Shown here in pieces: positions 20,241 to 41,896 of a stretch of DNA of 64,000 nt (positions are counted from its first letter, which is position 1; each line of letters begins with the position of its first letter). Position numbers and translations under genes: made by a program. The stretch is from positions 50,300 through 114,299 of the forward strand of contig CAZXOE010000002.1 of the NCBI GenBank assembly GCA_964642305.1, in the 5' to 3' direction. Source of the stretch: an uncultured Candidatus Saccharibacteria bacterium (lineage in GTDB: Bacteria > Patescibacteriota > Minisyncoccia > Phycocordibacterales > UBA1550). The notes beneath the pieces were generated by a model that was not told the origin of the DNA, searched no databases, and was given only the letters and a program-made list of their open reading frames with translations.

Positions 20241-20522
20241 ATGAATCCCGTTAGAGACCCCTCAGTTATGTATTACACCTATGTTATCGAGAACGATAAA
20301 GGTACATGGTATACTGGAAGTACGGGAGACCTACGGAAACGCTTTAGAGAGCACAACGAAGGGCAGGCCAACATGGACAAAAGGTAAAGGTTTGTGGAAG
20401 GTTATTTATTACGAAGCATGTCTTAATGAGCAAGATGCTCGGTCGAGAGGGATGTATTTAAAATCAAGAATGGGTAAGCGCTATCTAAAAAGTAGACTAA
20501 AGCGTTTCCTGTCTCTAATGGG
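20241..20522 (+). mobile_element. TIR mini-element copy 2 carrying a GIY-YIG nuclease ORF (TIR CCCGTTAGAGAC...GTCTCTAATGGG)
   Basis: Left end ATGAATCCCGTTAGAG is identical to the first 16 nt of copy 1. Right TIR at 20511-20522 abuts the argS ATG at 20523. Confidence 0.55.
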
Positions 20523-20526
20523 ATGA
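20268..20526 (+). pseudogene. GIY-YIG nuclease (YhbQ/UPF0213-like), interrupted by a +1 frameshift
   Basis: Frame 0 gives MYYTYVIENDKGTWYTGSTGDLRKRFREHNEGQ, the GIY-YIG core. Frame +1 continues TKGKGLWKVIYYEA...YLKSR. A 1-nt shift lies near 20370. The ORF track splits it into 20199..20387 and 20281..20526. Confidence 0.55.
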
Positions 20527-22241
20527 AAGAGAAACTAGAATCAATAGTTGCAGAGGCGCTCAAAGCGCTTGGAATTGAAACTGCGACTGTTACAATAGAA
20601 CGCCCCGCCGACATGGCGCACGGCGACTATTCCACCAACGCGGCTCTGGTTTACGGAAAGAAAGCAGGCATTCCACCGCGCGAGTTTGCGGAGAAACTAT
20701 TAGAAAAAATACGAGATGCATCACCATATGACATAGCAAAAATTGAAATCGCCGGCGCTGGGTTCGTCAATTTTTTCATGACCGCTGACGCGATAAGGGA
20801 AGAAAATAAAAAAGAAAAATGCTCTCTCGTCACTAGGTATTCAAAAAAGAATATTCTTGTGGAGCATTCTTCCCCAAATATCTTTAAACCGTTTCATATC
20901 GGGCATTTAATGAACAACATTGTTGGTGAGTTTGTCACAAGGGCAACAATAATAGGTGGCGGAAATGTCACGACTATATCTTTTCCATCAGATGTTTCCC
21001 TCGGGATTGCAAAAGCGGTGTTTGTCCTTCTTGAGGACAAAAAAGAAGGCAGAGATGTATTTGCGCTTTCAGATGAAGAAAAAATAACCGCATTTGGCGA
21101 AGCATACCGAAGGGGTGTGGAGTATTTTGACACGCGCCCCGATGAGAATGAAAAGGCAAAAGAGATAGCGCGCATCATTTATGACAAAGACCATTCATCA
21201 GAAACTCGCGCGTTTTTTGAACGCGCAAAAGAAATCAACACCGCATATCTTATAAAAATAATAAAGGAGCTTGGTTCTGTTATAGACGAGATAATTTATG
21301 AATCTGAGGCAGGTGAAATAGGGCAAGAGATTGTAGAGAAAAACACGGGCGAGGGAAAAGTGTTTGCAAAAAGTGAAGGCGCAGTGGTGTATGTCCCTGA
21401 TCCCGCGCGCAAGGATTTGCACACGCAGGTCTTTATCAACAGCGAGGGGCATCCGACATATGAAGCAAAAGATCTCGGCCTCATTGATTTGAAGTTCTCA
21501 AAATTTGCGCCCGATATTTCGTATTTTGTCACCGACACGGAGCAGGCATCGCATTTTAGGGTTGTGCTCGATGCCGCAGGGAAGCTTGGTGGTGTGTGGC
21601 CGTCGCGCGTAGAAAAAAGCATTCACATCCCGCATGGAAGAATGCTTTTCAAGGGGCAAAAAATGTCGAGCCGTCTTGGGGGTGTGCCGATCGCTCTTGA
21701 TGTTGTTGCAGTGGTGGAGGAAGAAGTAAGAGAGAGAGCAGGGGAGAAAATTGCGCACCTCGGTGCTCTAGAGAAAATGAAGCTGGAGCGTGAGATTGCG
21801 CTTTCTTCCCTCCGTGTGGCGGTCCTTCGTTCAAAGCCAGGTATTAATATTAATTTTGACCCCGAAACATCACTCTCGTTTGAAGGGGACTCAGGTCCGT
21901 ATCTTTTGTATACACACGCACGAACCGCGTCGCTTCTTGAAAAAGGGAAAGAAAAAGGATATGAGCCAACGTTTGCATCTGTGCCAGTAACACTTTTAGA
22001 AAGAGAGCTAGCGCAGTATGAGTTTGTTTTAGGGCAGGCGGTCACCGATCTTCATCCACAAAAATTAGTGACGTATCTTTTTGAAGTAGCGCAACTATTT
22101 AATGGTTTTTATGGAAGTACGCAAATCATCACAGAAGATAAAGAAACATCCGAGCATTACCTCGCCATAGTAAAGCGGCTCAAAGCAGTCCTCAAGGAAG
22201 GCCTCTGGGTGCTCGGCATTTCCGCACCGGAGAAGATGTAG
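20523..22241 (+). CDS. argS: arginyl-tRNA synthetase
   Basis: HIGH motif FHIGHLMN. Class-I ArgRS-like over 572 aa. Confidence 0.9.
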   Translation: MKEKLESIVAEALKALGIETATVTIERPADMAHGDYSTNAALVYGKKAGIPPREFAEKLLEKIRDASPYDIAKIEIAGAGFVNFFMTADAIREENKKEKCSLVTRYSKKNILVEHSSPNIFKPFHIGHLMNNIVGEFVTRATIIGGGNVTTISFPSDVSLGIAKAVFVLLEDKKEGRDVFALSDEEKITAFGEAYRRGVEYFDTRPDENEKAKEIARIIYDKDHSSETRAFFERAKEINTAYLIKIIKELGSVIDEIIYESEAGEIGQEIVEKNTGEGKVFAKSEGAVVYVPDPARKDLHTQVFINSEGHPTYEAKDLGLIDLKFSKFAPDISYFVTDTEQASHFRVVLDAAGKLGGVWPSRVEKSIHIPHGRMLFKGQKMSSRLGGVPIALDVVAVVEEEVRERAGEKIAHLGALEKMKLEREIALSSLRVAVLRSKPGININFDPETSLSFEGDSGPYLLYTHARTASLLEKGKEKGYEPTFASVPVTLLERELAQYEFVLGQAVTDLHPQKLVTYLFEVAQLFNGFYGSTQIITEDKETSEHYLAIVKRLKAVLKEGLWVLGISAPEKM

Positions 22242-23616: not shown

Positions 23617-26600
23617 ATGAAAAATATTTTCCATCGTTCCGCCGAGTTTATTGCAAAACACAAACACCATCACCATATCGCGCTCGCTACGCTCGCGCTC
23701 GTTATAGCAGGCGCAGGAGTGTACACATATCGGCACGAAATAGCGCAGGCGGCAACATATACTTTTACACAGTCCTCGTGGGCAGGCGGAGCTACTGCGA
23801 ACACCGCAGTGCACCCGACCAATCAATCAAGCTGGACGCAATATTCCGCAAATTCGGCAGATATAACTGCTGATGCAAGTAGTGTGAGACTAAACACGGT
23901 AAGCTACTCCTTTACAGATGACGGCACTAGCACTACCACCAGCCCAATAGCCACAGGTGGCGGTTTTTCAAGTGGTGCAAATTCCTCAACGGCGATTTCC
24001 GGTTCAGGCACAGGCGCGAGCGTGGGCTTGATGTTGAATGAATATGGCTGGGCAGTGGGAAATAGTGGAACCATACGAAAAACTGCCAACAGCGGGGAAA
24101 CTTGGTCTACCCAAACAAGTGGGACAACCAATGGTCTTAATAACCTCTACTTCATCGACTCCAATATCGGCTGGGCGGTGGGAGGTAGCGGAGTCATACG
24201 AAAAACCATAGACGGTGGTACAAACTGGCCTACCCAAACAAGCAGCGGGATAACCGCAAATGGTGTCCACTTCATCGACGCCAATACCGGCTGGGTGGTG
24301 GGAGGTGACGGAACTAATGGAATTATACGAAAAACCATCAACGGCGGAACAAGCTGGTCTACCCAACTAACGATAGGAGGCTATATGGATTTTTTCGATG
24401 TTCATTTCATTGACGCTAATACCGGATGGGCAGTGGGAAATCAAGCAACGATAAAAAAAACTATAGACGGTGGTACAACTTGGTCTACCCAAACAAGTGC
24501 GAGAAGTGCAGAACTTTACGCCGTCCACTTCATCGATACCAACACCGGCTGGGTGGTGGGAGCTTACGGAATACAAAAAACCATAGACGGTGGTACAACT
24601 TGGTCTACCCAAACAAGCGAGACACAATGGCTTCGCGGTGTCCACTTCATCGACGCCAATATCGGCTGGGCGGTGGGAGGTAGCGGAGTCATACGAAAAA
24701 CCATAGACGGTGGTACAAACTGGCCTACCCAAACAAGCGGGACAACCCAACAACTTAGAGGCGTCCACTTCACTGACGCCAATACCGGCTGGGCGGTAGG
24801 AGCAGCCGGCACCATACTCAAAACCACCAACGGCGGTACTACATGGACAGCTCAAACAAGCGGGACGACTCAGAATCTTAATAACCTCTACTTCGTATCT
24901 TATTATTCCAACCCCGGCACCTTCACTTCTGCAGATATTGACCTCGGGGCGAATGTTATCTTTAGTGGAAAAACATTAGATTGGACGGAAAGTTTGAACG
25001 GTGGCGATATTCAAATTCAAATGAGAAGCGCAACTACGCAAGGAGGGCTTTCTGGAGCGACATGGTACGGTCCGACTGGTACAGGGGATTATTATACAGC
25101 AAGTGGCGGTAGTAGTATAAACACTGTTCACAATGGTCATAGGTGGATTCAATACCGAGCAACTTTAACTACTCCTAATACAGCCCTTACCCCCACACTT
25201 GATTCTGTAACGATAAATTACACGCAATACGCAAGCGCGGGCGATTTAACTTCTTCTAAATATGATGTCGGGTCAGATACTCTTATTTCTAGACTTAGCT
25301 GGGTTGCGTCTACTACAACCACAGAAACTGTCGCTTTCCAGGTGCAGTCCTCACCGGACAACTCCACATGGACAGGTTGGTGCGGATTTAGCGAGACAGG
25401 CCCAACGTGCGATGGGTCAAACTATTTCACAGACGCGCACAATGGCGTAGCACTTGGCACTAGTCACCCGCTTCGTTCAGGCACTGGAGCAGGTGCTGAC
25501 AGATATTTCCAATATAAAGTATTCCTTGTTTCAGGCGGAGCTGTGACGCCAGAGCTAACATCTGTTACGGTGCAATATGTGATTAACGCGCCACCGGATG
25601 TTCAAAATGTCACTGCTGTGCAAAATGCAGATGGGACTGTGACGGTGAATTTTGATATGCGTGATACCGACACCAATGATGCTGGTGCCGCCACTCCAGG
25701 AAAAGTTATTTCTACACTGCAGTACAATAATGCGGCATGTGGTGCTGGACCTTCATGGGCTGATGCGGCCGCGGTTACTGGAGCTGTCGGCGCGAATACA
25801 ACCATTACTGCCACGTATCCAACAAGCGCGAGCTCCACTATTACATGGACTCCTTCTACCGACTGGTCGGATAAGTACTGCGCAACACAGCAAGTTCGTA
25901 TAAAATTGAATGACTCTGAGGGTGCAAATAATCTTGGGTATAGCACCGCGGCATCGTTTTTGCTCGATACCACAGCGCCTGTTGTAGCGTCAACCGGCGG
26001 TTTCCTTGTGGATTCCTCTGTAGGAGGAGCTGGACTTGCGGGCATAAAACTTACCGCAACAGATGACAGCACTATGCAGTATAGACTTTGCAATAATTCA
26101 GACTTTACAGCAGACGGATTGAACTCGGGTGCTGGTGCCTGCACAGAATGGAGCTCTGCTTCTGCGTCCGTTGACCTTACTACATCAGCAAATTCGTGGA
26201 ACACAGCTCTAGGCGCGGATGGAACAGAAACTGTATATATGCAAGTGCGTGATTTGTATGGCAACGTGACATCTAGGACAGCTAGCGCGCCAACGGTACC
26301 ACCATCGTTTATTGCAACTGACACAACAAACCTCAACAGCGACACGTACAGAGAGTTTTTGAGCTGGGGAAAAGCTTCATCAACTACATTTGGATCATAT
26401 AAGGTCTATTACAACACCACAGGCTCTGGTGCTAGCTATTCATTGCTTGGCACAGTTACAGATGTAAACCAAAATTACTATACACACACGATAACAACAG
26501 CAACAAGCTCAACACACTACTACAAGATGGTTACTGTTAGCGCGAACGGCGATATTTCAGAATTTACATCCGTAAAATCAGATGTCCCTGACGGCTCGGG

Positions 26601-29025
26601 AAGCACTGATGTTACGGCGCCGTATATACCATACGCCGGCATCGCGGTGTCGTCTGTGAGAAACACGTCTGCAAACATAACATTTAGCACGTATACAGAT
26701 GTTTCTTTGGCAGAAGGCGAGCTCGCAACCTCTACTGTGCGATACGCGAGCTATACTGGGAATGCGCCAACATCCTGCCCAACCACGTCTTCAACAAACT
26801 CAAACACATATGTTGTGAACCACAGCGTATATCTTACAGATCTAACTCCTTCTACCAGCTATGTGTTCTGTGTTCTTGCAAAAGATATTTCTGGGAATGT
26901 GAGTACGGCATCATATGTGGCGGAGTCTGGCGGAACATTTACAACCATAGGTGGCCCAAGAATAACAGGAGTGACACAAAGAGAAATTACAGACACATCC
27001 GCAACTATTTTCTGGAACACAGACACAAGCTCTGATTCAAAGGTGTATTTTTCAACTAGCGCGGGTGGCGTAAACGGAGCGACCCCAGTTACGGGAGCCG
27101 TTGTTACCACGTCTGGAACAAACGAAAATGGCACATTTTATCAGCATCAAATAGGGCTCACTGGTTTGACTCCCGGCCTAACATATTATTACAAGGTTTC
27201 CTCAACAGACGCTCTAGACTCAGAGTTGGTAGCAATAGATGACAATACTGGGCAATATTACAGTTTTGTAACCTTGAAGGACACAACCCCACCAATCATT
27301 ATGGGTACTTCTACGCCAGTGCTAGCGCCAACTGCCGCTGTTATTGTGTGGCAGACGGACGAAATGGCAGACTCGCAAGTATTTTATGATACCGTGTCGC
27401 ACGGAACAGACACATCCCTTTATCCAAAATACACAGCGACACAAAGCTACCCTACAAGCGTAAAGTCTATTTACCATGTAATGACACTGTCCTCAGACAC
27501 AGCAAATTCTGGAAGTGGTGGTGGAACGAACGCTCTTATAAAGGAGACACAGTATTACTATGTTGTGAAATCAACCGATTCAGCTGGCAACTCTTCTGTT
27601 TCGACGGGGACATTTACGACACCTGCAGACGGTAACGTTACTATTACTGTAGTGAGAGTAACCCAAGCATCAGAGGGTACACCACCAGACACAGCAGGCC
27701 CTGTTTTGTCTAGTGTGAAGGTCAGTGATATTACTCCGTTTGGAGCTACAGTTTCGTTTGATACGAATGAGGATGCTGTAAGTTTTGTTGAATACGGCAA
27801 AAGCGCGTCATTTGGCGATAGCGCTGGTAGCAAGACGTGGAGTAAAACACACTCCATAAAACTTCGCGGGTTAACTCTTGGCACTGAGTACTATATAAAA
27901 GTTTCTGCTGTAGATAAAGCAGGGAACACGGGTACAGGAGGTGAACAAACATTCAAAACATCGTTCCTTTCGGAGGATTTGAAAGACCTCACGAAGATAG
28001 AAAATATTGAGCAATTCCAAAAGGAGATTGAGGCAACGATTGAGTCAATCCTCCCGTCGCTCGTGCCTCCATTTATCACAAAGCCAGTCATTAGTGATAT
28101 CACAGAAGGTAGTGCAAAGATTTCATTTAGAACAAACATAAAAGCATTTCCAGTGGTTGTGTTTGCAGAGGATGGCGTATACGATGAAACAAAAGAAAAT
28201 CCGTATACAGGAGAGATGTCAGACACAACAGAAAAAGCTACGAGCCACGAGCTCGCCCTCACTGGTCTCAAGGGTAACACAAAGTATCATATTCAGGCGC
28301 GAGGGTTCTCTCTACCAAAGGTAATTGGCAAGTCAGCAGACGTGACATTTATCACAAAGGCGTCAAAGATTGCGGGTTCTATCGTGGAGCGCAAAAAAGA
28401 TTCGTTTACAGTGGTATGGACCACGGAACAGCCAACGTCATCAATTGTTGAGTTTAAAGATTTGAAGCGTGGCATAACAGGTCGTAAGACAGATGATGCA
28501 AAAAAGAAATCTCACTCTATGAAGATTGAAAACCTTCCTTCTGGAACTGCGTATGAAGTAAATCTTTCTGGAGTGACGGAGCAGGGGAATGTCGCAGAGG
28601 CTGGGTCGCCAATTTCTGTAACAACATCAACAGATACCACACCGCCAGTTATTTCAGGATTTAAAGTGGACAATGCTCTTGTTCCAGGCAGAACAGACAG
28701 AATCCAGACTATTGTGTCGTGGGTTACTGATGAGCCTTCAGACTCTACAGTTTACTATCAAGAAGGCGCTGGTACTCCGGGCGATACAGAGGAGCTTGCA
28801 AACAAAAATGAAGTGTTAGATTCGTATATTACGAACCACAGCGTTATTCTTCCAAGCTTGAAGCCAGGCACTATTTACCGATTAAAGGTTACATCAAGCG
28901 ATGACTCTGGAAACCTTGGTTCATTTGGCCCTCGCACAGTCATTACTCCAAAGCAGACTGAGTCCATCACCGATATCATTTTCAAGAACTTTGAAGACAG
29001 CTTCAAGTTCCTCCAGAAGATATAA
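23617..29025 (+). CDS. giant (1802 aa) membrane-anchored cell-surface protein: N-terminal TM, ~8 BNR/Ycf48-like beta-propeller blades, multiple FN3-like domains
   Basis: Repeated GW(A/V)VG..G.I.KT.DGGT.W..QTSGTT..L..VHF.D.N.GW blades. Later recurring ...YYYKVS..D..GN / TEYYIKVSAVDKAGN FN3-like beta-sandwich signatures. Confidence 0.65.
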   Translation: MKNIFHRSAEFIAKHKHHHHIALATLALVIAGAGVYTYRHEIAQAATYTFTQSSWAGGATANTAVHPTNQSSWTQYSANSADITADASSVRLNTVSYSFTDDGTSTTTSPIATGGGFSSGANSSTAISGSGTGASVGLMLNEYGWAVGNSGTIRKTANSGETWSTQTSGTTNGLNNLYFIDSNIGWAVGGSGVIRKTIDGGTNWPTQTSSGITANGVHFIDANTGWVVGGDGTNGIIRKTINGGTSWSTQLTIGGYMDFFDVHFIDANTGWAVGNQATIKKTIDGGTTWSTQTSARSAELYAVHFIDTNTGWVVGAYGIQKTIDGGTTWSTQTSETQWLRGVHFIDANIGWAVGGSGVIRKTIDGGTNWPTQTSGTTQQLRGVHFTDANTGWAVGAAGTILKTTNGGTTWTAQTSGTTQNLNNLYFVSYYSNPGTFTSADIDLGANVIFSGKTLDWTESLNGGDIQIQMRSATTQGGLSGATWYGPTGTGDYYTASGGSSINTVHNGHRWIQYRATLTTPNTALTPTLDSVTINYTQYASAGDLTSSKYDVGSDTLISRLSWVASTTTTETVAFQVQSSPDNSTWTGWCGFSETGPTCDGSNYFTDAHNGVALGTSHPLRSGTGAGADRYFQYKVFLVSGGAVTPELTSVTVQYVINAPPDVQNVTAVQNADGTVTVNFDMRDTDTNDAGAATPGKVISTLQYNNAACGAGPSWADAAAVTGAVGANTTITATYPTSASSTITWTPSTDWSDKYCATQQVRIKLNDSEGANNLGYSTAASFLLDTTAPVVASTGGFLVDSSVGGAGLAGIKLTATDDSTMQYRLCNNSDFTADGLNSGAGACTEWSSASASVDLTTSANSWNTALGADGTETVYMQVRDLYGNVTSRTASAPTVPPSFIATDTTNLNSDTYREFLSWGKASSTTFGSYKVYYNTTGSGASYSLLGTVTDVNQNYYTHTITTATSSTHYYKMVTVSANGDISEFTSVKSDVPDGSGSTDVTAPYIPYAGIAVSSVRNTSANITFSTYTDVSLAEGELATSTVRYASYTGNAPTSCPTTSSTNSNTYVVNHSVYLTDLTPSTSYVFCVLAKDISGNVSTASYVAESGGTFTTIGGPRITGVTQREITDTSATIFWNTDTSSDSKVYFSTSAGGVNGATPVTGAVVTTSGTNENGTFYQHQIGLTGLTPGLTYYYKVSSTDALDSELVAIDDNTGQYYSFVTLKDTTPPIIMGTSTPVLAPTAAVIVWQTDEMADSQVFYDTVSHGTDTSLYPKYTATQSYPTSVKSIYHVMTLSSDTANSGSGGGTNALIKETQYYYVVKSTDSAGNSSVSTGTFTTPADGNVTITVVRVTQASEGTPPDTAGPVLSSVKVSDITPFGATVSFDTNEDAVSFVEYGKSASFGDSAGSKTWSKTHSIKLRGLTLGTEYYIKVSAVDKAGNTGTGGEQTFKTSFLSEDLKDLTKIENIEQFQKEIEATIESILPSLVPPFITKPVISDITEGSAKISFRTNIKAFPVVVFAEDGVYDETKENPYTGEMSDTTEKATSHELALTGLKGNTKYHIQARGFSLPKVIGKSADVTFITKASKIAGSIVERKKDSFTVVWTTEQPTSSIVEFKDLKRGITGRKTDDAKKKSHSMKIENLPSGTAYEVNLSGVTEQGNVAEAGSPISVTTSTDTTPPVISGFKVDNALVPGRTDRIQTIVSWVTDEPSDSTVYYQEGAGTPGDTEELANKNEVLDSYITNHSVILPSLKPGTIYRLKVTSSDDSGNLGSFGPRTVITPKQTESITDIIFKNFEDSFKFLQKI
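24040..24870 (+). repeat. near-identical ~120-135-bp nucleotide repeats encoding the propeller blades
   Basis: Strings such as ccatagacggtggtacaacttggtctacccaaacaagc recur several times; this is the source of many spurious antisense ORFs. Confidence 0.7.
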
Positions 29026-29199: not shown

Positions 29200-29763
29200 T
29201 TAAAGATTAAAATATTTTCGTACCCGAGACTCGTTTTCTATATCGCTAGCAGTAATAAGAAAAATATGTTCTCTCACATTAAAACAATCCCCTAAAAAAT
29301 CAACTTCTTTTTTGCATTCGAACGGTGTTATGAAAACAGATTTTTGGTATGGGTAGCAATTTGCTTTTTTTAACAGTTTATTTAATGCTTGCCTTGAGAA
29401 CTTCTTTTCTTCTGGTATATCAAACATTATTATTCGCCATTTTTTGTCCCACTTTTCGTGTTTATCAGACCTGTCTAATTTTAGATTATTTAGTCGAGCT
29501 TCTTTCCTGCCTTTGTCAGTAAGCGCAACATAAATCTCACCTCCACGATTCTCCATTTTTATTAAACCTTTATTTTTTAAACTTCCTGCTGAGCGTCTTA
29601 TTTTTAGTTTTATTTTCCCATCTTCAATATCAATATATTTGAGCAACTGCGCCAGGTTTGGAAGCGCGAGAATCATAACAAAAGCCCCAGTCGTTAGCAG
29701 AGAGGTTAGGATAATTTTTGAAATCTCACCTTTATCGTATTTTTGTGTATGGCTATTATTCAC
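29200..29763 (-). CDS. PaaX-like protein (winged-helix N-terminus, Cas2-fold C-terminal domain), N-terminal TM
   Basis: KWDKKWRIIMFDIPEEKK...QKSVFITP matches the PaaX C-domain / Cas2-like fold pattern (W.G.W..V.FDIPE....R.....L...G....SV). No cas genes or array nearby. Confidence 0.4.
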   Translation of the reverse strand: MNNSHTQKYDKGEISKIILTSLLTTGAFVMILALPNLAQLLKYIDIEDGKIKLKIRRSAGSLKNKGLIKMENRGGEIYVALTDKGRKEARLNNLKLDRSDKHEKWDKKWRIIMFDIPEEKKFSRQALNKLLKKANCYPYQKSVFITPFECKKEVDFLGDCFNVREHIFLITASDIENESRVRKYFNL

Positions 29764-29933: not shown

Positions 29934-32900
29934 ATGACAGAATCTGAAAAGAAACTCTCTGATATTGCAAAACGCGAGGAGGAAACTCTTGCGAGCTGGC
30001 AGTCTGCTGATATTTTTGAAAAGACGCTTGAGCAAACTAAAAATGGTGAAAGTTTTGTTTTCTATGACGGGCCTCCATTCGCGACTGGCCTTCCGCACTA
30101 CGGACACATACTTGCAAGCACAATCAAGGATGCGATACCTCGCTATCAAACCATGCGTGGGCGATACGTTCGCCGTGTATGGGGTTGGGACTGCCACGGT
30201 CTTCCAATTGAAAACCTAATAGAAAAGGAGCTTGGGCTTGAACACAAAAAAGATATTGAGGAATATGGTGTAGAAAAATTTAACGAGGCGTCACGCGCTT
30301 CGGTGTATCGCTATGATGCAGAATGGAAAAAGTTTATTCCGCGAATCGGGCGATTCGTTGATATGGATCACTCATATAGCACGATGGATGCAGGCTACAC
30401 CGAAAGCGTATGGTGGGCTTTTAAGGAGCTTTTTAAAAAAGGTCTCGTGTATCAGGGTTTTAAGCCGATGCATATTTGTCCGAGGTGCGAGACAACACTT
30501 TCAAACAATGAAGTAACGAGTAACTATAAAGACATAACCGATATTTCAGTCACGGCAAAATTTGAGCTTGTTAAAGAGCCGGACACATACATTCTCGCGT
30601 GGACTACGACACCTTGGACTCTCCCAGGAAATGTGGCACTCGCAGTTTCTCCAGACTCTGAGTATGTGAAAGTAGCAATAGGGGACGAGAAATATATTTT
30701 GGCTGGAGAACGCGCTGAGGCAGCTCTTTCTGGGAAAGAGTACACAATAGTTTCGCGAATGAAAGGTTCTGAACTTGTTGGCGCAGAGTACAAACCAATT
30801 TTTGATTATTACTCAGAACAGGGAACGCTGGACAATCGCGAAAATGGATGGAAAGTGTACGGAGCAGAATTTGTAACAATGGAGAGCGGTACTGGAGTGG
30901 TGCACATCGCGCCAGCCTTTGGCGAGGACGATATGAATCTCGGCACAAAAGAAAATTTGCCGTTTATACAACATGTTGCAATGGATGGCACAATGAAAAA
31001 AGAAGTTCGGGATTTTACCGGTGTTTCTGTGAAGCCAAAGTCTGACGAAAAGGATGGACATCAAGCGACGGATATTTTAATTATTAAACACCTTGCAGGC
31101 GCTGGCGCGCTTTTTTCAAAAGAAAAAATTATTCACGCGTACCCGCATTGTTGGCGTTGCGAGACACCGCTTTTAAACTACGCGGCTCAATCGTGGTTTG
31201 TGAAAGTACCTGAACTAAAAGATAAACTTCTTGCAGAGAACGCAAAAACATCTTGGGTGCCAAAAAATATGCGCGACGGGCGTTTTGGAAAGTGGCTGGA
31301 AGGCGCGCGCGATTGGGCAATCTCGCGCTCGCGATATTGGGGAGCGCCAATTCCAGTGTGGGAATGTGAAAAATGTGAGGCGAGGGAAGTGTTTGGCTCT
31401 CGTGCGGAGCTTTCTCTGCGTGTGAAAAAATCCGGCAACAAATATATTGTAATGCGTCACGGCGAGGCAGAAAGCAATGTTAAGAGAGTTGTGAGTTCAA
31501 AAACAGACGGAAGCTCAGCGTACGGACTTACAGCAAACGGGCGCGCATTAGTAGAGGAGACTGGCAAGAAACTAAAAGAAAAAGGAATTGACATTATCAT
31601 CACGTCGCCTTTTGTGCGCACAAAGGAGACTGCGGAGATAGTCGCCGGAGCTATTGGTTTTGATACGCGAAAGATTATTGTTGATGAGCGCATCAAAGAA
31701 ATTGACACAGGGGTTTTTGACGGAAGATCAATTGACGAGTATCGCGGACACTTCGTTTCGATGGCGGAAAAATTCACAAAGAGACCCGAGGGAGGGGAGA
31801 ATTTGCTTGATGTGAAGCGTCGAGCCATGGCTCTTCTTGAAGATCTTGAAAAAGAGTACGCAGGCAAGACTATTCTTATTGTCACGCACGAATATCCTAT
31901 CTGGATGCTTATGACAGGAATAGAAGGAGCGAGCATTACGCGCGGAATAGAGATAAAAGACGGCAAAGAAGATTTTGTAGAGACCGGAGAAGTAAAAGAA
32001 ATACAGTACAGCCCATTCCCACACAATGCGGATTTTGAATTTGACCTGCACTTGCCGTACATAGACACTGTGGGTTTGTTGTGTAGTTGCGGTGGTAAAA
32101 TGAAGCGTGTCCCGTATGTTTTTGACTGCTGGTTTGAGTCTGGCTCAATGCCATACGCGCAGTTCCATTATCCGTTTGAAAACAAGGAACTTTTTGAAAA
32201 GAATTTTCCTGCGGATTTTATTGCTGAGGGTGTGGATCAAACACGTGGGTGGTTTTACTCCATGATGGTTCTTTCCGTTGCGCTCTTTGGTAAGGCTCCG
32301 TTTAAAAACGTAATAGTGAACGGAATGACGCTCGCGGAGGATGGGCAAAAGATGTCGAAGAGTCGCAAAAATTATCCCGACCCAGTGGATGTGATCAACA
32401 AATATGGCGCGGACGCTGTGCGTTATTATATGCTGTCGTCTCCGATAGTGCATGCGGAAGATCTTGCGTTTTCAGAAATGGGTGTAGATGAAGTTGTTAA
32501 AAAAAATATCGCTCGCCTTCTCAATGTGCTTTCCTTCTACAAGATGTATGGAGGAAGCGCTGCGCCTACCAAAGGGGAGAGTGAAAACCCTCTCGATCAA
32601 TGGATTCTCGCGCGTCTCGCAGAGCTTACGACAGAAATGACTAACGCTTTTGATAATTATGAACTTGATCGCGTGGTAAAACCTGTTGGACTTTTTATTG
32701 ATGATTTATCCACATGGTATATTCGTCGTTCACGAGAACGCTTTAAGTCAGATGAGACTGTGGATCGCGCGCATGCTATCGAAACGACACGCGTGGTACT
32801 TTTGGAGCTCTCAAAACTTATTGCGCCTGTGATGCCGTTTCTCGCGGAGCATATATATCAAAATGTCGGAGGTAACAAGGAAAGCGTGCATCTTGAAACT

Positions 32901-33425
32901 TGGTCGAAATCAAAAGAAGTAAACTCAGAAATTCTTGCAAGAATGGAAGAAGTTCGTCGAGTCGTCTCTGTTGCTCTTGAGGATCGCGCGAACGCCGGGT
33001 TGAAAGTTAGGCAACCACTTTCTTCGGTAACAATTCCATCTGTACTCAAAATTAATGTTTCTGATGAGGCGATCATCACCGATGAAATTAATGTGAAGCG
33101 TGTAATACGATCAGATGCTCATGATGCAAAAATTGAGATTGATAGAGAGATTACTCCAGAACTCAAAAAAGAAGGGCAGTTTCGTGATGTACTACGCACT
33201 GTACAAGAGTTACGCAAATCTGAGAATCTTAATCCTGCTGATAAAGTAGTGTTAAATGTGCATACTGATGATGATGGTAAAGAATTTCTGGAGTTATTTA
33301 AAGATGATTTAAAGAAGACCGCACTTTTGCTAGATATTCGTTTTACTAGTGATTTATTTGCGCAAGGGGGGAGCGCAAGCATTTCTTTTGATAAATTTTC
33401 TTTTGATTTTACTTTAGATAAATAA
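29934..33425 (+). CDS. ileS: isoleucyl-tRNA synthetase with an inserted histidine-phosphatase (PGAM-like) domain
   Basis: HIGH (PHYGH) and KMSKS present, plus the editing domain (WTTTPWTLPGN). A ~220-aa insert between VWECEKCE and HLPYID contains RHGEAESN...SPFVRTKETAEI. Confidence 0.9.
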   Translation: MTESEKKLSDIAKREEETLASWQSADIFEKTLEQTKNGESFVFYDGPPFATGLPHYGHILASTIKDAIPRYQTMRGRYVRRVWGWDCHGLPIENLIEKELGLEHKKDIEEYGVEKFNEASRASVYRYDAEWKKFIPRIGRFVDMDHSYSTMDAGYTESVWWAFKELFKKGLVYQGFKPMHICPRCETTLSNNEVTSNYKDITDISVTAKFELVKEPDTYILAWTTTPWTLPGNVALAVSPDSEYVKVAIGDEKYILAGERAEAALSGKEYTIVSRMKGSELVGAEYKPIFDYYSEQGTLDNRENGWKVYGAEFVTMESGTGVVHIAPAFGEDDMNLGTKENLPFIQHVAMDGTMKKEVRDFTGVSVKPKSDEKDGHQATDILIIKHLAGAGALFSKEKIIHAYPHCWRCETPLLNYAAQSWFVKVPELKDKLLAENAKTSWVPKNMRDGRFGKWLEGARDWAISRSRYWGAPIPVWECEKCEAREVFGSRAELSLRVKKSGNKYIVMRHGEAESNVKRVVSSKTDGSSAYGLTANGRALVEETGKKLKEKGIDIIITSPFVRTKETAEIVAGAIGFDTRKIIVDERIKEIDTGVFDGRSIDEYRGHFVSMAEKFTKRPEGGENLLDVKRRAMALLEDLEKEYAGKTILIVTHEYPIWMLMTGIEGASITRGIEIKDGKEDFVETGEVKEIQYSPFPHNADFEFDLHLPYIDTVGLLCSCGGKMKRVPYVFDCWFESGSMPYAQFHYPFENKELFEKNFPADFIAEGVDQTRGWFYSMMVLSVALFGKAPFKNVIVNGMTLAEDGQKMSKSRKNYPDPVDVINKYGADAVRYYMLSSPIVHAEDLAFSEMGVDEVVKKNIARLLNVLSFYKMYGGSAAPTKGESENPLDQWILARLAELTTEMTNAFDNYELDRVVKPVGLFIDDLSTWYIRRSRERFKSDETVDRAHAIETTRVVLLELSKLIAPVMPFLAEHIYQNVGGNKESVHLETWSKSKEVNSEILARMEEVRRVVSVALEDRANAGLKVRQPLSSVTIPSVLKINVSDEAIITDEINVKRVIRSDAHDAKIEIDREITPELKKEGQFRDVLRTVQELRKSENLNPADKVVLNVHTDDDGKEFLELFKDDLKKTALLLDIRFTSDLFAQGGSASISFDKFSFDFTLDK

Positions 33426-33428
33426 TTT

Positions 33429-34016
33429 ATGTCGCATCATATCTACCACACTCGTGGAATTATTTTGAGTAGCTCTGCGGTCGGCGAATCAAACCGCGTT
33501 TATAAAGTTTTTACTGAGGAGCTCGGGCTTATTCTAGGAACGGCACAATCAGTGAGAGAGGGGAAGTCGAAGCTTAGATACACACTCCAAGATTTTTCTA
33601 TTGTGAATGTTGATCTTGTGCGAGGAAAAGAAGTGTGGAGAATAGTGAGCGCAGGTGGGCATCAAACACTAGGCACTATAAAAAAAGACCCTGTTCGACT
33701 AAAACTTTTTGCGAGCTACTCCTTTTTACTGTCGAGACTTCTTCATGGCGAGGGAAGAGATCAAGAACTTTTTGATGAGATAGTACGCGTCGCGGATTTT
33801 ATAGAAAAAACAGCAATTCCACAGGAACTAACATTATCATTTGAAGCACTATCTACTATGCGTGTCCTCGTGCATTTGGGTTATATGGACCAAGAAGGGT
33901 ATGAAAAGTTTTTGAGTAAAAATACATACTCAGTTAGTATTTTGGAAAATTTTGAAAAAATACGCTCAAAAGTTCTTCACAAAATTAACACATCGTTAAG
34001 TGCTTCACATTTGTAG
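33429..34016 (+). CDS. recO: DNA repair protein RecO (short form)
   Basis: N-terminal OB-fold pattern GIILSSSAVGESNRVYKVFTEELGLILGTAQSVREGKSK. Confidence 0.55.
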   Translation: MSHHIYHTRGIILSSSAVGESNRVYKVFTEELGLILGTAQSVREGKSKLRYTLQDFSIVNVDLVRGKEVWRIVSAGGHQTLGTIKKDPVRLKLFASYSFLLSRLLHGEGRDQELFDEIVRVADFIEKTAIPQELTLSFEALSTMRVLVHLGYMDQEGYEKFLSKNTYSVSILENFEKIRSKVLHKINTSLSASHL

Positions 34017-40209: not shown

Positions 40210-40327
40210 CCCGTTAGAGATAACTCAGTTATGTTTTCGGCGATAATGGGATATACTGAGATTACTATTATTAGAAGTTAAATATAATTAAGATAAGGAA
40301 ATTTAATAATTTCCTATCGCTAACGGG
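40210..40327 (+). mobile_element. TIR mini-element copy 3 (CCCGTTAGAGATA...TATCGCTAACGGG), ORF-less deletion derivative
   Basis: Left end shares cccgttagaga..ctcagttatg with copy 2. Right end shares ggaaatttaataatttcctaNNNctaacggg with copy 1. It abuts the metG ATG. Confidence 0.5.
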
Positions 40328-41896
40328 ATGACAGAAAAAAAATTCTACATCACTACGCCTATTTTTTACGCGAATGCGGAGCTCCATTTAGGGCACACAT
40401 ATACGCTTGTTTTGTCAGACGTTTTAGCGCGATATCATCGCTTTGTAGGAGACAATACTTTTTTCCTAACAGGCTCCGATGAGCATGGCGACAAAATTGT
40501 GCGTTCTGCGCAAAAGGAAGGCATGGGGCCTCAGGCGTTTGTAAATATAAATGTCGCAAAAATGGAGGTGCTTATTCAGGAGCTTGGTATATCAAATGAT
40601 CTATTTATTCGCACCTCCGATCAAGAGCATCATTGGTCAGGAGCAAAGAAGCTGTGGCACGCGCTTGAGGAAGCTGGTGATATTTACAGGGGCACATACA
40701 AAGGGCTTTACTGTGTTGGGTGCGAGGCATTCATTACCGAAAAAGAATTAGTGAGTGGCAAATGTCCTTTGCATGACGCTCCACCAGAGCATATTGAAGA
40801 AGAAAATTATTTTTTCAAACTTTCAAAATATGGCCCTGAAATAAAACGATTACTTGAAAGTGGAGAATTAAAAATTACTCCCCATTCACGAGTAAATGAA
40901 ATAGTTTCACTCATCTCTGGTGCGAACGGAGAGAGTGCTTTGGTAGATGTGAGTATCTCTCGCCCAGAGCGCGCGATACCGTGGGGGATACCTGCGCCAA
41001 GTGACCCAACACAGCTAATGTATGTGTGGTGCGACGCGCTTTCAAACTACATTTCTGCTCTTGGCTACGGTACAGACAATGATGAAAATTTCAAAACTTT
41101 TTGGCCAGCGGATATTCAGGTGTTGGGCAAAGACATACTTCGTTTCCACGCGCTCCTTTGGCCAGCATTTTTATTGTCAGCGAAGATTCCGCTACCACGC
41201 GAGCTTTTGGTCCATGGGTTTGTCAATTCAGGAGGGAAGAAGATGTCTAAGTCCTTGGGTAACGTGTTGAGTCCGGGTGAATTTATTTCAGAGTATGGCA
41301 GGGACGCGCTTCGGTATTACCTTACGAGAGAGGTAACTCCCGTGGATGATTGGGATTTAACCCGAGAAAAATTTAAAGAAGTTTACAATGCAAACCTGGC
41401 AAATGGCTTGGGGAACCTTGTATCACGCACTTTAAAAATGGCTGAATCGTATTTTGGAGGAGTGGTAAAAGGTGACGCGACACGTGTACCTCCTATTAAA
41501 ACAAAAATGTCCGATGTGGAAACGTTTGATGAAATTGCAGGTATTAATATTCCATATATTATTACAAATGACATTTTGCCACGTTACCATAAACATATGA
41601 GCGCGAATGAGATAAATAGAGCAGCGGACGTAATTTGGGAGCTCATTGGGCATCTAGATCAATTTGTTACAGATTATGAGCCATTTAAGCTTGTGAAGAC
41701 AGACAAGGAGTCTGCGGAGGCTGTAATTTGGTGTCTTTTGTACGGACTTCGCGAGGTTGGCCAAATGCTTACGCCAATGATGCCAGATACAGCGCAAAGG
41801 ATTATAACGCTTGTTGGCGCATCCGATGTCAAGGCTGATGAAATGGTCTTTAATGCAAAAGCACTCACCGAACCGCTTTTTATGCGCAAAGAGTAG
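40328..41896 (+). CDS. metG: methionyl-tRNA synthetase
   Basis: HIGH motif (ELHLGHTY) and KMSKS. Confidence 0.9.
   Translation: MTEKKFYITTPIFYANAELHLGHTYTLVLSDVLARYHRFVGDNTFFLTGSDEHGDKIVRSAQKEGMGPQAFVNINVAKMEVLIQELGISNDLFIRTSDQEHHWSGAKKLWHALEEAGDIYRGTYKGLYCVGCEAFITEKELVSGKCPLHDAPPEHIEEENYFFKLSKYGPEIKRLLESGELKITPHSRVNEIVSLISGANGESALVDVSISRPERAIPWGIPAPSDPTQLMYVWCDALSNYISALGYGTDNDENFKTFWPADIQVLGKDILRFHALLWPAFLLSAKIPLPRELLVHGFVNSGGKKMSKSLGNVLSPGEFISEYGRDALRYYLTREVTPVDDWDLTREKFKEVYNANLANGLGNLVSRTLKMAESYFGGVVKGDATRVPPIKTKMSDVETFDEIAGINIPYIITNDILPRYHKHMSANEINRAADVIWELIGHLDQFVTDYEPFKLVKTDKESAEAVIWCLLYGLREVGQMLTPMMPDTAQRIITLVGASDVKADEMVFNAKALTEPLFMRKE

What the first reader, a model, noticed from the sequence alone, without database searches (positions are those of the whole stretch)
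31381..32049. Isoleucyl-tRNA synthetase with an embedded complete histidine-phosphatase (phosphoglycerate-mutase-like) domain
The region between the zinc-knuckle VWECEKCE and the conserved HLPYID...DCWFESGSMP is normally a ~40-aa linker in bacterial and eukaryote-like IleS. Here it is ~220 aa and contains an intact PGAM/CobC-type histidine phosphatase: IVMRHGEAESN (RHG catalytic His), ...SPFVRTKETAEIV..., ...ERIKEIDTGVFDGRSIDEY..., ...ILIVTHEYPI. The host gene keeps HIGH, the editing domain and KMSKS, so it is presumably functional. The insert has no intein splice junctions. A phosphatase inserted in an aaRS catalytic core is unusual and could relate to tRNA end healing, Ap4A/nucleotide turnover, or regulation.
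Basis: partly seen in the sequence, partly recalled or inferred. Interest (0 to 1): 0.7.

Follow-up and report, generated by a model that had tools for sequence, protein, structure and literature searches.

The report
Isoleucyl-tRNA synthetase with built-in phosphatase
This candidate-phyla (Patescibacteria) bacterium's essential isoleucine-charging enzyme carries a complete, apparently active phosphatase domain inside its catalytic core, one instance of a widespread and apparently undescribed partnership between this enzyme and a phosphatase whose substrate is still unknown.

Summary
The ORF at 29934..33425 (+, 1163 aa) is a type-2 IleRS that passes NCBI's curated IleS cutoff. Residues ~497-700 form a complete branch-1 histidine phosphatase (PF00300, E=8e-34) inserted between the two halves of the second zinc knuckle.

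It is not a one-off. At least 80 species-representative genomes carry the same insertion as an intact ORF, and all five core catalytic residues are kept in 68/68. In the closest comparison dN/dS is 0.04 for the insert and 0.11 for the rest of the gene.

In related lineages the closest free-standing phosphatases are encoded directly upstream of an insert-less ileS (argS-hisPhos-ileS-recO). Other lineages carry the domain at three further sites in IleRS, in one to at least three full copies, all with intact catalytic residues. One lineage has a HAD phosphatase in the same slot.

Best reading: a neighbouring gene was captured and became a selected, active phosphomonoesterase module working with IleRS. 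The substrate is unknown. A phosphorylated tRNA 3' end is the leading guess; an unrelated housekeeping phosphatase is the main rival.

No publication describing this was found.

The parts
29934..33425 (+). ileS: type-2 (eukaryote-like) isoleucyl-tRNA synthetase with embedded phosphatase, 1163 aa
   Evidence: ORF. TIGR00392 ileS 888.3 bits against cutoff 621.4. Best PDB match is IleRS2 8C8V at 756 bits, against IleRS1 1FFY at 336 bits. AF2 model pLDDT 91.7, pTM 0.85.
30096..30107 (+). HIGH signature (HYGH, aa 55-58)
   Evidence: mostly conserved across the 68 aligned sequences (57-62 of 68 per motif position, with some alignment offsets)
30522..31148 (+). CP1 editing domain (about aa 197-405), bracketed by the first zinc cluster (C182/C185, C406/C409)
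   Evidence: Aligns to the isolated IleRS editing domain 1WK8 at query 197-405. C182, C185, C406 and C409 are kept in 68/68.
31365..31376 (+). First half of the second zinc knuckle (C478-E-K-C481)
   Evidence: both Cys kept in 51/68 relatives
31422..32033 (+). Inserted histidine-phosphatase domain (aa ~497-700; Pfam match 505-671 = nt 31446-31946)
   Evidence: PF00300 E=8.3e-34. PhoE 1EBB/1H2E E=1.4e-14. AF2 of aa 485-712: pLDDT 96.0, pTM 0.92. Foldseek top hits iPSP1, PhoE, Rv2419c and CobC with target-normalised TM 0.72-0.78. dN/dS 0.04 against L001.
31455..31463 (+). RHG motif: R508, nucleophile H509, G510
   Evidence: R508 and H509 kept in 68/68, G510 in 67/68; aligned to the RHG motif of PhoE
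31476..31478 (+). N515 (phosphate pocket)
   Evidence: 66/68
31617..31619 (+). R562 (phosphate pocket)
   Evidence: 68/68
31698..31700 (+). E589 (general acid/base)
   Evidence: 68/68
31887..31889 (+). H652 (second catalytic His)
   Evidence: 68/68
32082..32090 (+). Second half of the second zinc knuckle (C717-S-C719)
   Evidence: C717 kept in 51/68, C719 in 50/68
32124..32153 (+). DCWFESGSMP motif, where the Rossmann fold resumes
   Evidence: D731, W733 and P740 invariant in alignment A2
32349..32363 (+). KMSKS signature (aa 806-810)
   Evidence: K806 and K809 kept in 68/68
32595..33353 (+). Anticodon-binding domain (aa 888-1030) and C-terminal DUF5915 region (aa 1040-1140)
   Evidence: PF08264 E=4e-29 and PF19302 E=5e-14
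33429..34016 (+). recO, the conserved downstream neighbour of ileS
   Evidence: RecO_N. recO lies downstream of the fused ileS in 54 of 68 loci with enough sequence, and downstream of the split hisPhos-ileS pair in L081.
20496..22238 (+). argS, the usual upstream neighbour of ileS in relatives, here displaced about 7.7 kb upstream by the 1802-aa surface-protein gene and a PaaX-like gene
   Evidence: Arg_tRNA_synt_N, tRNA-synt_1d and DALR_1. argS is upstream in 44 of 58 loci. Coordinates are those of the stop-to-stop ORF found.

Best explanation
Residues ~497-700 of this IleRS are a complete, catalytically competent branch-1 histidine phosphatase of the PhoE/iPSP1/CobC type. It sits in the surface loop between the two halves of the second zinc knuckle of the connective-peptide region of a type-2 IleRS. 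Shown: the fold, the full catalytic set (R508, H509, N515, R562, E589, H652), strong purifying selection, and an otherwise intact synthetase. Inferred origin: capture of the small phosphatase gene that, in related Patescibacteria, lies immediately upstream of ileS (argS-hisPhos-ileS-recO). The same partnership exists as a split operon and as insertions at four different loops of IleRS, in one to at least three full copies, and in one lineage with a non-homologous HAD phosphatase in the same slot. Inferred mechanism: H509 attacks a phosphomonoester to form a phospho-histidine intermediate, E589 protonates the leaving group and then activates water, and the two Arg, Asn and second His hold the phosphate. 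Inferred role: the phosphatase works together with IleRS and not merely alongside it. The substrate is unknown. My leading guess (about 0.25-0.3) is a phosphorylated tRNA(Ile) 3' end (3'-phosphate, opened 2',3'-cyclic phosphate or pyrophosphate) that has to be cleared before charging. Next comes a nucleotide or pyrophosphate-type product of adenylate-forming enzymes (about 0.15-0.2).
For: Identity and integrity.
Conservation: the five core catalytic residues are kept in 68/68 and N515 in 66/68; insert length is 214-238 aa. dN/dS is 0.04 for the insert and 0.107 for the rest against L001.
Spread: at least 80 species-representative genomes carry the fused gene, mostly as intact ORFs of about 1150-1220 aa.
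Split version: the free-standing relatives P0147, P0153, P0139 and P0115 (32-37% identical to the insert in alignment A3) each lie 1-11 nt upstream of, or overlapping by 4 nt, an ileS start. The L081 partner passes the TIGR00392 cutoff. A fifth case (L094) is adjacent but inverted. More distant free-standing relatives are not next to ileS.
Synteny: argS-ileS-recO is shared by the fused and split forms.
Multiple sites and copies, all with R-H..R..E..H intact.
Specificity: of 105 proteins of 300 aa or more that carry this domain type, 102 are IleRS.
Non-homologous replacement: P0251 has tandem HAD phosphatase at site B and no His_Phos.
Hints towards RNA ends: P-loop kinase modules co-inserted in some IleRS have Pnkp1 (4XRP) as their best solved match (E=1.9e-5); from my own knowledge Pnkp1 is part of an RNA-repair complex. 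The same phosphatase subfamily is fused to the tRNA-modification enzyme TsaC, whose alternative partners include a 2H/LigT cyclic phosphodiesterase and TruB.
Against: No biochemical data exist. Coordinates of the models are not available, so the distance from H509 to the synthetic site, the editing site or the tRNA path is unknown. The nearest sequence and structural relatives are all small-molecule phosphatases. The domain is not basic (mean net charge -2, pI about 6.7), so it has no obvious RNA-binding surface of its own. Patescibacteria fuse many small enzymes to TsaC, including the DNA-repair domains MGMT and methylpurine glycosylase, so fusion by itself is weak evidence of shared function in this group. 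Every aaRS handles tRNA 3' ends, ATP, AMP and PPi, and none of the proposed substrates explains why IleRS alone is the host. The kinase-Pnkp1 similarity is weak, and kinase modules occur in only a few relatives and not in the window protein. The direction of evolution (capture versus fission) is inferred, not demonstrated.
Confidence: 0.6

Rival explanations
1. Hitch-hiker. The domain is an independent housekeeping small-molecule phosphatase (for example phosphoserine, sugar-phosphate, nucleotide or pyrophosphate) whose gene happened to lie next to ileS. Local rearrangements moved it into permissive surface loops, and it keeps its own function with no mechanistic link to isoleucylation. Genome streamlining in Patescibacteria favours such fusions.
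For: The closest solved relatives are small-molecule phosphatases of about 200 aa (iPSP1, PhoE, GpgP, CobC, HFP). The modelled His_Phos domain begins and ends with beta strands (E19-24 and E203-206 of the model), an arrangement that in this fold suits loop insertion (my reading of the fold; no coordinates available). CPR TsaC is fused to many apparently unrelated enzymes. From my own knowledge, ileS operons in other bacteria contain unrelated genes such as ribF and lspA.
Against: The association is highly specific: 102 of 105 multidomain carriers are IleRS and none is ArgS, although the gene lies between argS and ileS. All fusions are internal insertions at four sites and never the simple end-to-end fusion that loss of a stop codon would give. 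Up to three full copies per IleRS are each maintained. A HAD phosphatase occupies the same slot in one lineage.
Confidence: 0.3
2. Regulatory phosphoprotein phosphatase. The domain removes phosphoryl groups from IleRS itself or from a translation factor, for example after attack by a HipA- or Doc-like kinase or as part of a kinase/phosphatase/acetyltransferase switch on IleRS activity.
For: Some relatives combine His_Phos with P-loop kinase and GNAT modules in one IleRS (P0273, P0267, P0252). JGI labels one such protein SixA-like. From my own knowledge, the histidine-phosphatase superfamily includes the protein phosphatases SixA, PGAM5 and Sts-1.
Against: The SixA model scores 32 bits against a cutoff of 74.5. 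The domain has a PhoE-like cap typical of small-substrate enzymes. The co-inserted kinases are P-loop and nucleotide/polynucleotide-kinase-like, not protein-kinase-like. There are no PADLOC hits.
Confidence: 0.07
3. Non-catalytic structural or oligomerisation module. The fold is used only as a spacer, a dimerisation surface or a ligand sensor.
For: From my own knowledge, His_Phos proteins often dimerise. 17 of 68 relatives have lost the flanking zinc-knuckle cysteines, so the insert might substitute structurally for the knuckle.
Against: The full catalytic set is invariant in 68/68 sequences and in every copy at every site, despite only about 35-45% overall identity. dN/dS is 0.04. A non-homologous HAD phosphatase in the same slot points to selection for the activity, not the shape.
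Confidence: 0.03
4. Artefact or selfish element. The insert is an assembly chimera, an intein, or a recent mobile insertion that has inactivated ileS.
For: A few relatives carry IS200-like Y1 transposase or DUF559 nuclease domains inside IleRS.
Against: The same in-frame architecture appears in at least 80 independently assembled genomes. There is no compositional break, no splice-junction nucleophiles and no Hint domain. There is purifying selection on both the insert and the host, and HIGH and KMSKS are intact.
Confidence: 0.01

Closest known systems
PhoE (YhfR) of Geobacillus stearothermophilus, PDB 1EBB/1H2E; also the histidine-phosphatase-type phosphoserine phosphatase iPSP1 of Hydrogenobacter thermophilus, 4IJ5/4IJ6
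   Same: Same fold, size (~200 aa) and catalytic residues (RHG His, two Arg, Asn, Glu, second His). Best sequence match is PhoE, E=1.4e-14; best structural matches are 4IJ6 and 1H2E.
   Different: Those are free-standing enzymes acting on small phosphomonoesters. Here the domain is an internal insertion in an aminoacyl-tRNA synthetase, shares only about 25% identity with them, has family-specific motifs (SGNKY before the first strand, SHExP(I/L)W after the second His), and has no known substrate.
Type-2 isoleucyl-tRNA synthetase (IleRS2), e.g. Priestia megaterium 8C8V and Thermus thermophilus 1ILE
   Same: The host aligns end to end apart from the insert: 756 bits to 8C8V, with HIGH, KMSKS, the editing domain, both zinc clusters and a type-2 C-terminus (DUF5915).
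   Different: About 200 extra residues lie between chain residues 465 and 470 of 8C8V. No solved IleRS has a catalytic domain there.
CP1 editing domain of class Ia synthetases (IleRS, ValRS, LeuRS)
   Same: It is the precedent for a second hydrolytic catalytic domain inserted into the Rossmann fold of the same enzymes and acting on the tRNA 3' end. A recent survey counts aaRS among the preferred hosts of inserted domains (PMC13114784).
   Different: CP1 is universal in these enzymes, unrelated in fold, and hydrolyses aminoacyl esters. The insert here is lineage-restricted and has phosphomonoesterase chemistry.
NCBIfam NF040702 'isoleucine--tRNA ligase, N-acetyltransferase domain-containing' (ileS_w_GNAT)
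   Same: It is a curated recognition that some IleRS carry an extra enzymatic domain. GNAT modules co-occur with His_Phos in Gracilibacteria and Peregrinibacteria IleRS.
   Different: The window protein has no GNAT domain and scores 340 bits against a cutoff of 1999. No equivalent curated model or description exists for the phosphatase-bearing form.
RNA end-healing enzymes: T4 Pnkp (P-loop kinase + HAD-type 3'-phosphatase) and bacterial Pnkp1-Rnl-Hen1 (4XRP)
   Same: The combination seen in some relatives (P-loop kinase whose best PDB match is Pnkp1, plus a phosphatase that is His_Phos or, in P0251, HAD) mirrors the kinase + phosphatase logic of end healing. The description of T4 Pnkp and of Pnkp1's function is from my own knowledge.
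   Different: No histidine-phosphatase-fold enzyme was found in the searched literature acting on RNA ends. The window protein has the phosphatase only. The kinase similarity is weak (E=1.9e-5). No ligase partner was identified.
Bifunctional RNase H/acid phosphatase, NCBIfam PRK07238 (named by NCBI as 'bifunctional RNase H/acid phosphatase')
   Same: It is the top NCBIfam hit of the insert (93.7 bits), and another case of a CobC/PhoE-like phosphatase fused to a nucleic-acid enzyme.
   Different: The score is far below the cutoff (326). That fusion is end to end, not an internal insertion, and to my knowledge its biological rationale is also unresolved.

Membership tests
Isoleucyl-tRNA synthetase (TIGR00392 equivalog) | Whole-protein score above the curated cutoff | tested here: met
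   888.3 bits against 621.4
Isoleucyl-tRNA synthetase (class Ia) | HIGH and KMSKS signature motifs | tested here: met
   HYGH aa 55-58 and KMSKS aa 806-810; K806 and K809 kept in 68/68
Isoleucyl-tRNA synthetase (class Ia) | CP1 editing domain present | tested here: met
   aa 197-405 align to the isolated IleRS editing domain 1WK8, E=4.5e-26; confidently modelled
Isoleucyl-tRNA synthetase (class Ia) | Isoleucylation and editing activity | not testable with these tools
   Needs enzymology or complementation
IleRS type 2 (eukaryote-like) | Closer to IleRS2 than to IleRS1, with a type-2 C-terminus and no C-terminal zinc-binding domain | tested here: met
   8C8V (IleRS2) 756 bits against 1FFY (IleRS1) 336 bits; DUF5915 C-terminus
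Histidine phosphatase superfamily, branch 1 (PF00300) | Pfam score above the gathering threshold | tested here: met
   117.4 bits against 21.7, E=8.3e-34
Histidine phosphatase superfamily, branch 1 (PF00300) | Catalytic core: RHG nucleophile His, second His, two Arg, and the acid Glu/Asp | tested here: met
   R508, H509, R562, E589, H652 and N515 align to the PhoE catalytic positions and are kept in 66-68 of 68 relatives
Histidine phosphatase superfamily, branch 1 (PF00300) | Complete alpha/beta fold | tested here: met
   AF2 pLDDT 96.0, pTM 0.92; Foldseek probability 1.00 and target-normalised TM 0.72-0.78 to PhoE, iPSP1, GpgP and CobC
Histidine phosphatase superfamily, branch 1 (PF00300) | Phosphomonoesterase activity | not testable with these tools
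   Needs an assay (pNPP and a substrate panel, with an H509A control)
Cofactor-dependent phosphoglycerate mutase (dPGM) | Score above the curated cutoffs of dPGM models | tested here: not met
   NF038349 91 bits against 225; TIGR01258 20 against 81.7; NF002339 45 against 316
Alpha-ribazole phosphatase CobC | TIGR03162 cutoff | tested here: not met
   73.7 bits against 162.9
Phosphoserine phosphatase PspA (histidine-phosphatase type) | NF045917 cutoff | tested here: not met
   68 bits against 350, although 4IJ6 is the top structural neighbour
Phosphohistidine phosphatase SixA | TIGR00249 cutoff | tested here: not met
   32.3 bits against 74.5, covering only the N-terminal third
Intein | N-terminal Cys/Ser, C-terminal His-Asn followed by Cys/Ser/Thr, and a Hint fold | tested here: not met
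   An 'HN' is conserved at aa 697-698 but the next residue is A/R/E/H/K/D. There is no conserved nucleophile at the N-junction and no Hint domain in Pfam.
RNA end-healing module (PNKP-like) | 3'-phosphatase or cyclic-phosphodiesterase activity on RNA ends | not testable with these tools
   Only circumstantial evidence:
RNA end-healing module (PNKP-like) | 5'-kinase domain in the same protein | tested here: not met
   No P-loop kinase in the window protein; present only in some distant relatives
Known anti-phage defence proteins (PADLOC) | Match to any PADLOC model | tested here: not met
   No hit for the insert or for the free-standing P0147

The most novel reading that the evidence does not exclude
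IleRS of Patescibacteria is a tRNA(Ile) repair and charging platform. The embedded phosphatase removes a 3'-terminal phosphate, an opened 2',3'-cyclic phosphate, or a toxin-installed pyrophosphate from tRNA(Ile), so the same enzyme can recharge it at once. In some lineages it is joined by a PNK-like kinase, a GNAT or a serine hydrolase, or is replaced by a HAD phosphatase. This would be the first histidine-phosphatase-fold enzyme acting on an RNA end, and the first aminoacyl-tRNA synthetase with a built-in tRNA end-healing activity, possibly as a counter-measure to tRNA-targeting toxins.
Probability: 0.2. Interest if true: 0.9.

Novelty: new variant of a known kind. Interest (0 to 1): 0.75.

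Why it matters
Aminoacyl-tRNA synthetases are among the best-studied enzymes, and their known added catalytic domains are editing hydrolases. A conserved, apparently active phosphatase inside the catalytic core of IleRS implies a phosphate-removal step tied to isoleucyl-tRNA synthesis that is not part of the textbook reaction. The supporting pattern is strong: hundreds of candidate-phyla species, a split-operon counterpart, independent insertions at several loops, and a non-homologous phosphatase in the same slot.

Even if the coupling proves to be only genomic, it would be a clear natural example of an adjacent gene being repeatedly captured as an internal domain of an essential enzyme in streamlined genomes.

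Either way the question is directly testable with recombinant protein. It also touches Patescibacteria physiology, tRNA damage and repair, and the tolerance of the class I catalytic core to large insertions, which is useful for aaRS engineering.

Tried and rejected
- Intein or mobile insertion: rejected. There are no splice nucleophiles, no Hint domain and no compositional break.
- Assembly artefact or split gene: the first homology search returned only fragments of 189-474 aa, which suggested split or frameshifted genes. Genome loci then showed intact ORFs of about 1150-1220 aa.
- Assignment to a specific phosphatase family (dPGM, CobC, PspA, SixA, GpmB): all are below the curated cutoffs.
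- Defence-system models (PADLOC): no hits.
- Rfam on the whole window: nothing at gathering thresholds.
- Literature: six searches or full-text look-ups found no description of an IleRS-phosphatase fusion or of a histidine phosphatase acting on tRNA ends, including the 2026 IleRS phylogenomics preprint.
- Identity-based clustering of the domain copies, meant to tell independent captures from intragenic duplications, was uninformative. All classes are about 27-36% identical to one another, so a proper phylogeny is needed.
- Electrostatics as a test of RNA binding: the insert is near neutral and the result is inconclusive.
- Context of more distant free-standing relatives (P0024, P0029, P0030): not next to ileS, which served as a negative control.
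- 3D geometry of the insert relative to the active sites could not be obtained, because the structure tool returns no coordinates. Calling site A 'CP3' rests on my recollection of class Ia nomenclature; the paper read names CP1-CP3 but gives no residue boundaries.
Full report
**1. What is in the window**

A single ORF, 29934..33425 on the + strand, encodes 1163 aa.

Pfam finds tRNA-synt_1 split in two, His_Phos_1 (PF00300) at aa 505-671 (E=8.3e-34, 117 bits against a gathering score of 21.7), Anticodon_1 at 888-1030 and DUF5915 at 1040-1140. NCBIfam's IleS equivalog scores 888 bits against a cutoff of 621.

The best solved relatives are type-2 IleRS: P. megaterium IleRS2 8C8V at 756 bits and T. 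thermophilus 1ILE at 726 bits, against 336 bits for S. aureus IleRS1. In the 8C8V alignment the query jumps from residue 484 to 686 while the chain moves only from 465 to 470. About 200 residues are therefore inserted between the CxxC (C478/C481) and the CxC (C717/C719) of the second zinc knuckle. GC content is continuous across the insert.

**2. The insert is a complete, intact histidine phosphatase**

Its best solved sequence relative is PhoE/YhfR (1EBB/1H2E, E=1.4e-14). The printed alignment puts R508-H509, N515, R562, E589 and H652 on the conserved RHG, N, R, E and H positions of PhoE.

An AlphaFold2 model of aa 485-712 is very confident (pLDDT 96.0, pTM 0.92). Foldseek places it with probability 1.00 among ~200-aa phosphomonoesterases: iPSP1 4IJ5/4IJ6, PhoE, Rv2419c GpgP, CobC 6E4B and HFP 9MMH, with target-normalised TM-scores of 0.72-0.78. 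The full-length model is also confident (pLDDT 91.7, pTM 0.85; block means 82-97 across aa 500-700).

No curated subfamily cutoff is reached (dPGM, CobC, PspA, SixA, GpmB). The domain can be called PhoE/CobC-like but not assigned a substrate. Intein features are absent.

**3. It is a clade-wide, selected trait**

All 80 best loci match the whole 276-aa junction query, insert included. Their record titles name Yonath-, Taylor-, Lloyd-, Nomura-, Kaiser-, Zambryski- and Vogelbacteria, Paceibacterota and Minisyncoccia; many other records carry a generic 'uncultured Candidatus Saccharibacteria' label.

The closest is Ca. Yonathbacteria UBA11698 at 88% identity, so the window probably comes from a Parcubacteria-group bacterium (lineage). 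Most loci hold an uninterrupted stop-to-stop ORF of about 1150-1220 aa. The short 'fragments' of the first protein search were therefore contig-end or frameshift artefacts.

In 68 aligned sequences of 1000 aa or more:
- R508, H509, R562, E589 and H652 are invariant, and N515 is kept in 66/68.
- The segment between aa 484 and 706 is 214-238 aa long.
- K806 and K809 of KMSKS and the first zinc cluster are invariant.
- The four Cys of the second knuckle are kept in only about 51/68, so the insert outlives the knuckle that hosts it.

Mean pairwise identity of the insert is 43.5%. That is lower than the catalytic core (58-62%) but higher than the C-terminal region (37%). Against the closest relative, dN/dS is 0.04 in the insert and 0.107 elsewhere. 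dS is about 1.4, near saturation, so these values are approximate.

**4. A split-gene counterpart**

An exhaustive HMMER search with the insert gave 50 cluster representatives at E up to 1e-30 and 1275 at E up to 1e-10. Among the best 150 are complete free-standing proteins of ~190-205 aa that share the insert's idiosyncratic motifs.

I looked up four of these, and in every case the gene abuts the start of an ileS:
- L081/L082/L083: argS-hisPhos-ileS(984 aa)-x-recO, with a 1-nt gap.
- L085: argS-hisPhos-ileS.
- L086: argS-hisPhos-ileS, overlapping by 4 nt.
- L087: hisPhos-ileS.

The L081 partner is an insert-less IleRS that passes the TIGR00392 cutoff (689 against 621 bits). A fifth case, L094, has the phosphatase gene next to an insert-less ileS fragment and near argS, but inverted, which may be a misassembly. 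More distant free-standing relatives (P0024, P0029, P0030) are not near ileS, so the adjacency is specific to the subfamily closest to the insert.

The fused loci share the same flanks: argS upstream in 44 of 58 informative loci and recO downstream in 54 of 68. In the window, recO follows directly (33429..34016) and argS lies at 20496..22238. The simplest history is that the gene between argS and ileS moved into ileS. The opposite direction (fission) is not excluded.

**5. A wider pattern**

Profiles built from the insert and from the two IleRS halves show His_Phos domains at four positions in IleRS (window numbering):
- Site A: the zinc-knuckle loop, as in the window.
- Site B: aa ~746-757, just after the WFESGS...FEN segment.
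- Site C: aa ~877-887, between the catalytic body and the anticodon-binding domain.
- Site D: aa ~422-431.

Among 115 full-length relatives of a two-domain form, the classes are C only (43), A only (39), B+C (11), B only (5), A+C (3), A+B+C (2) and none (12). P0058, which is cut off at its end, has three full copies plus a partial fourth. Source names for this set include Gracilibacteria, Peregrinibacteria and Peribacteria.

Every copy examined keeps R-H...R...E...H, although copies within one protein share only about 35% identity. They are old and separately maintained.

Of 105 proteins of 300 aa or more that carry this domain type, 102 are IleRS, 2 are tandem phosphatases and 1 is a TsaC fusion. 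None is ArgS, and none is a simple end-to-end IleRS fusion.

The same slots can hold other enzymes: GNAT, a serine hydrolase, P-loop kinases, DUF559 and an IS200-type Y1 domain. In P0251 a tandem HAD-family phosphatase sits at site B with no His_Phos at all. A non-homologous phosphatase in the same slot argues that phosphatase activity itself is being selected.

**6. What it may do**

The chemistry can be inferred from the family (established knowledge of branch-1 histidine phosphatases). The RHG histidine attacks a phosphomonoester to give a phospho-histidine intermediate. The conserved Glu acts as general acid and base. The two Arg, the Asn and the second His bind the phosphate. The substrate cannot be read from sequence.

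For functional coupling to IleRS:
- The exclusive host.
- The split operon.
- Repeated internal insertion.
- Multiple maintained copies.
- The HAD replacement.

Hints towards an RNA-end substrate:
- P-loop kinase modules co-inserted in some relatives have Pnkp1 (4XRP) as their best solved match, though weakly (E=1.9e-5). From my own knowledge Pnkp1 is part of an RNA-repair complex.
- HAD is the fold of the 3'-phosphatase of T4 Pnkp (my own knowledge).
- The same phosphatase subfamily is fused end to end to TsaC (Sua5/YrdC) in four clusters.
- TsaC's other partners include a 2H/LigT-type cyclic phosphodiesterase and TruB.

Against:
- The nearest relatives are small-molecule enzymes.
- The domain is not basic.
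- TsaC is also fused to MGMT, methylpurine glycosylase and Nudix domains. Patescibacteria evidently fuse many small enzymes, so a fusion is weaker evidence of shared function here than elsewhere.
- No proposed substrate explains why only IleRS is the host.
- The position of H509 relative to the active sites or the tRNA could not be measured, because model coordinates are not returned.

My estimates:
- 0.95 that this is an intact phosphatase domain in a functional IleRS.
- About 0.85 that it derives from the neighbouring gene.
- About 0.55-0.6 that it works with IleRS functionally.
- About 0.25-0.3 that the substrate is a phosphorylated tRNA end.
- About 0.3 that it is an unrelated housekeeping phosphatase riding in IleRS.

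**7. Novelty**

The architecture is visible in automatic annotations: precomputed PF00133+PF00300 combinations, a JGI product name 'isoleucyl-tRNA synthetase/phosphohistidine phosphatase SixA/...GNAT', and NCBI names such as 'class I tRNA ligase family protein'. NCBI also curates an IleS-with-GNAT exception model.

I found no paper describing an IleRS-phosphatase fusion, its split-operon counterpart or its multiple insertion sites. A 2026 preprint on IleRS domain evolution mentions neither phosphatase nor Patescibacteria.

I rate it a new variant of a known kind: an aaRS with an added catalytic domain, but of unprecedented chemistry and position. Interest is 0.75, because a specialist would be surprised by the scale and regularity of the pattern and the question is directly testable.

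Noticed in passing
window 23617-29025 (+): A giant 1802-aa ORF with an N-terminal membrane anchor, many 'TIDGGTTW/IRKT..GG..W' repeats and long Ser/Thr-rich repeat modules. It is probably a surface protein, and it separates argS from ileS in this genome.
   Followed up: no
window 29200-29763 (-): A 187-aa protein with a PaaX central Cas2-like domain (PF20803, E=5e-18) directly upstream of ileS on the opposite strand. Probably a small regulator.
   Followed up: partly
window 20496-22238 (+) and 40310-41893 (+): Two more class I synthetase genes lie in the same 64 kb: argS (Arg_tRNA_synt_N, tRNA-synt_1d, DALR_1) and a 528-aa metG-like gene (tRNA-synt_1g, Anticodon_3). Neither carries a phosphatase.
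   Followed up: partly
window 1-64000: No Rfam family reached its gathering score anywhere in the 64 kb, so no tRNA, rRNA or riboswitch was detected. ARAGORN was not run.
   Followed up: no
window 31365-31376 and 32082-32090; loci L001-L080: The four cysteines of the zinc knuckle that hosts the insert are lost in about 17 of 68 relatives, while the insert and the first zinc cluster are kept. The insert may have made the knuckle dispensable.
   Followed up: partly
P0184, P0273, P0267, P0203 (relatives, not in the window): Some Patescibacteria IleRS carry an IS200-type Y1 transposase domain (P0184, P0273), or a DUF559 endonuclease-like domain (inside the editing-domain region in P0267; at about aa 572-675, after the N-terminal catalytic half, in P0203). 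These come in addition to His_Phos, and in P0184/P0273/P0267 to GNAT and/or kinase modules, giving proteins of up to 1859 aa.
   Followed up: partly
P0251 (relative, not in the window): An IleRS with about 427 aa of tandem HAD-family phosphatase at site B and no histidine phosphatase. This is a non-homologous phosphatase in the same slot.
   Followed up: partly
P0116, P0307-P0309; L096:977-2140: The same phosphatase subfamily is fused end to end to the t6A enzyme TsaC (Sua5/YrdC). Patescibacteria TsaC is a fusion hub, with partners that include the MGMT DNA-binding domain (the most common), TruB, a 2H/LigT cyclic phosphodiesterase, methylpurine-DNA glycosylase, GNAT and Nudix.
   Followed up: partly
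L094:2-1507: An insert-less ileS fragment is followed by a His_Phos gene on the opposite strand that overlaps its end, with argS further along on the minus strand. This is either a local inversion of the argS-hisPhos-ileS block or a misassembly.
   Followed up: no
L028:1628-2458: One locus with a fused ileS also has a separate ORF matching the phosphatase profile upstream of argS. It may be an additional free-standing paralogue.
   Followed up: no
L095 (context of P0133): The genome carrying the two-phosphatase IleRS (sites B+C) also encodes DAHP synthase, adenylosuccinate synthase, SufBD and a 1123-aa SLH-domain protein nearby, a richer biosynthetic context than I would expect for typical Parcubacteria. 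Relatives are named Gracilibacteria or Peregrinibacteria.
   Followed up: partly
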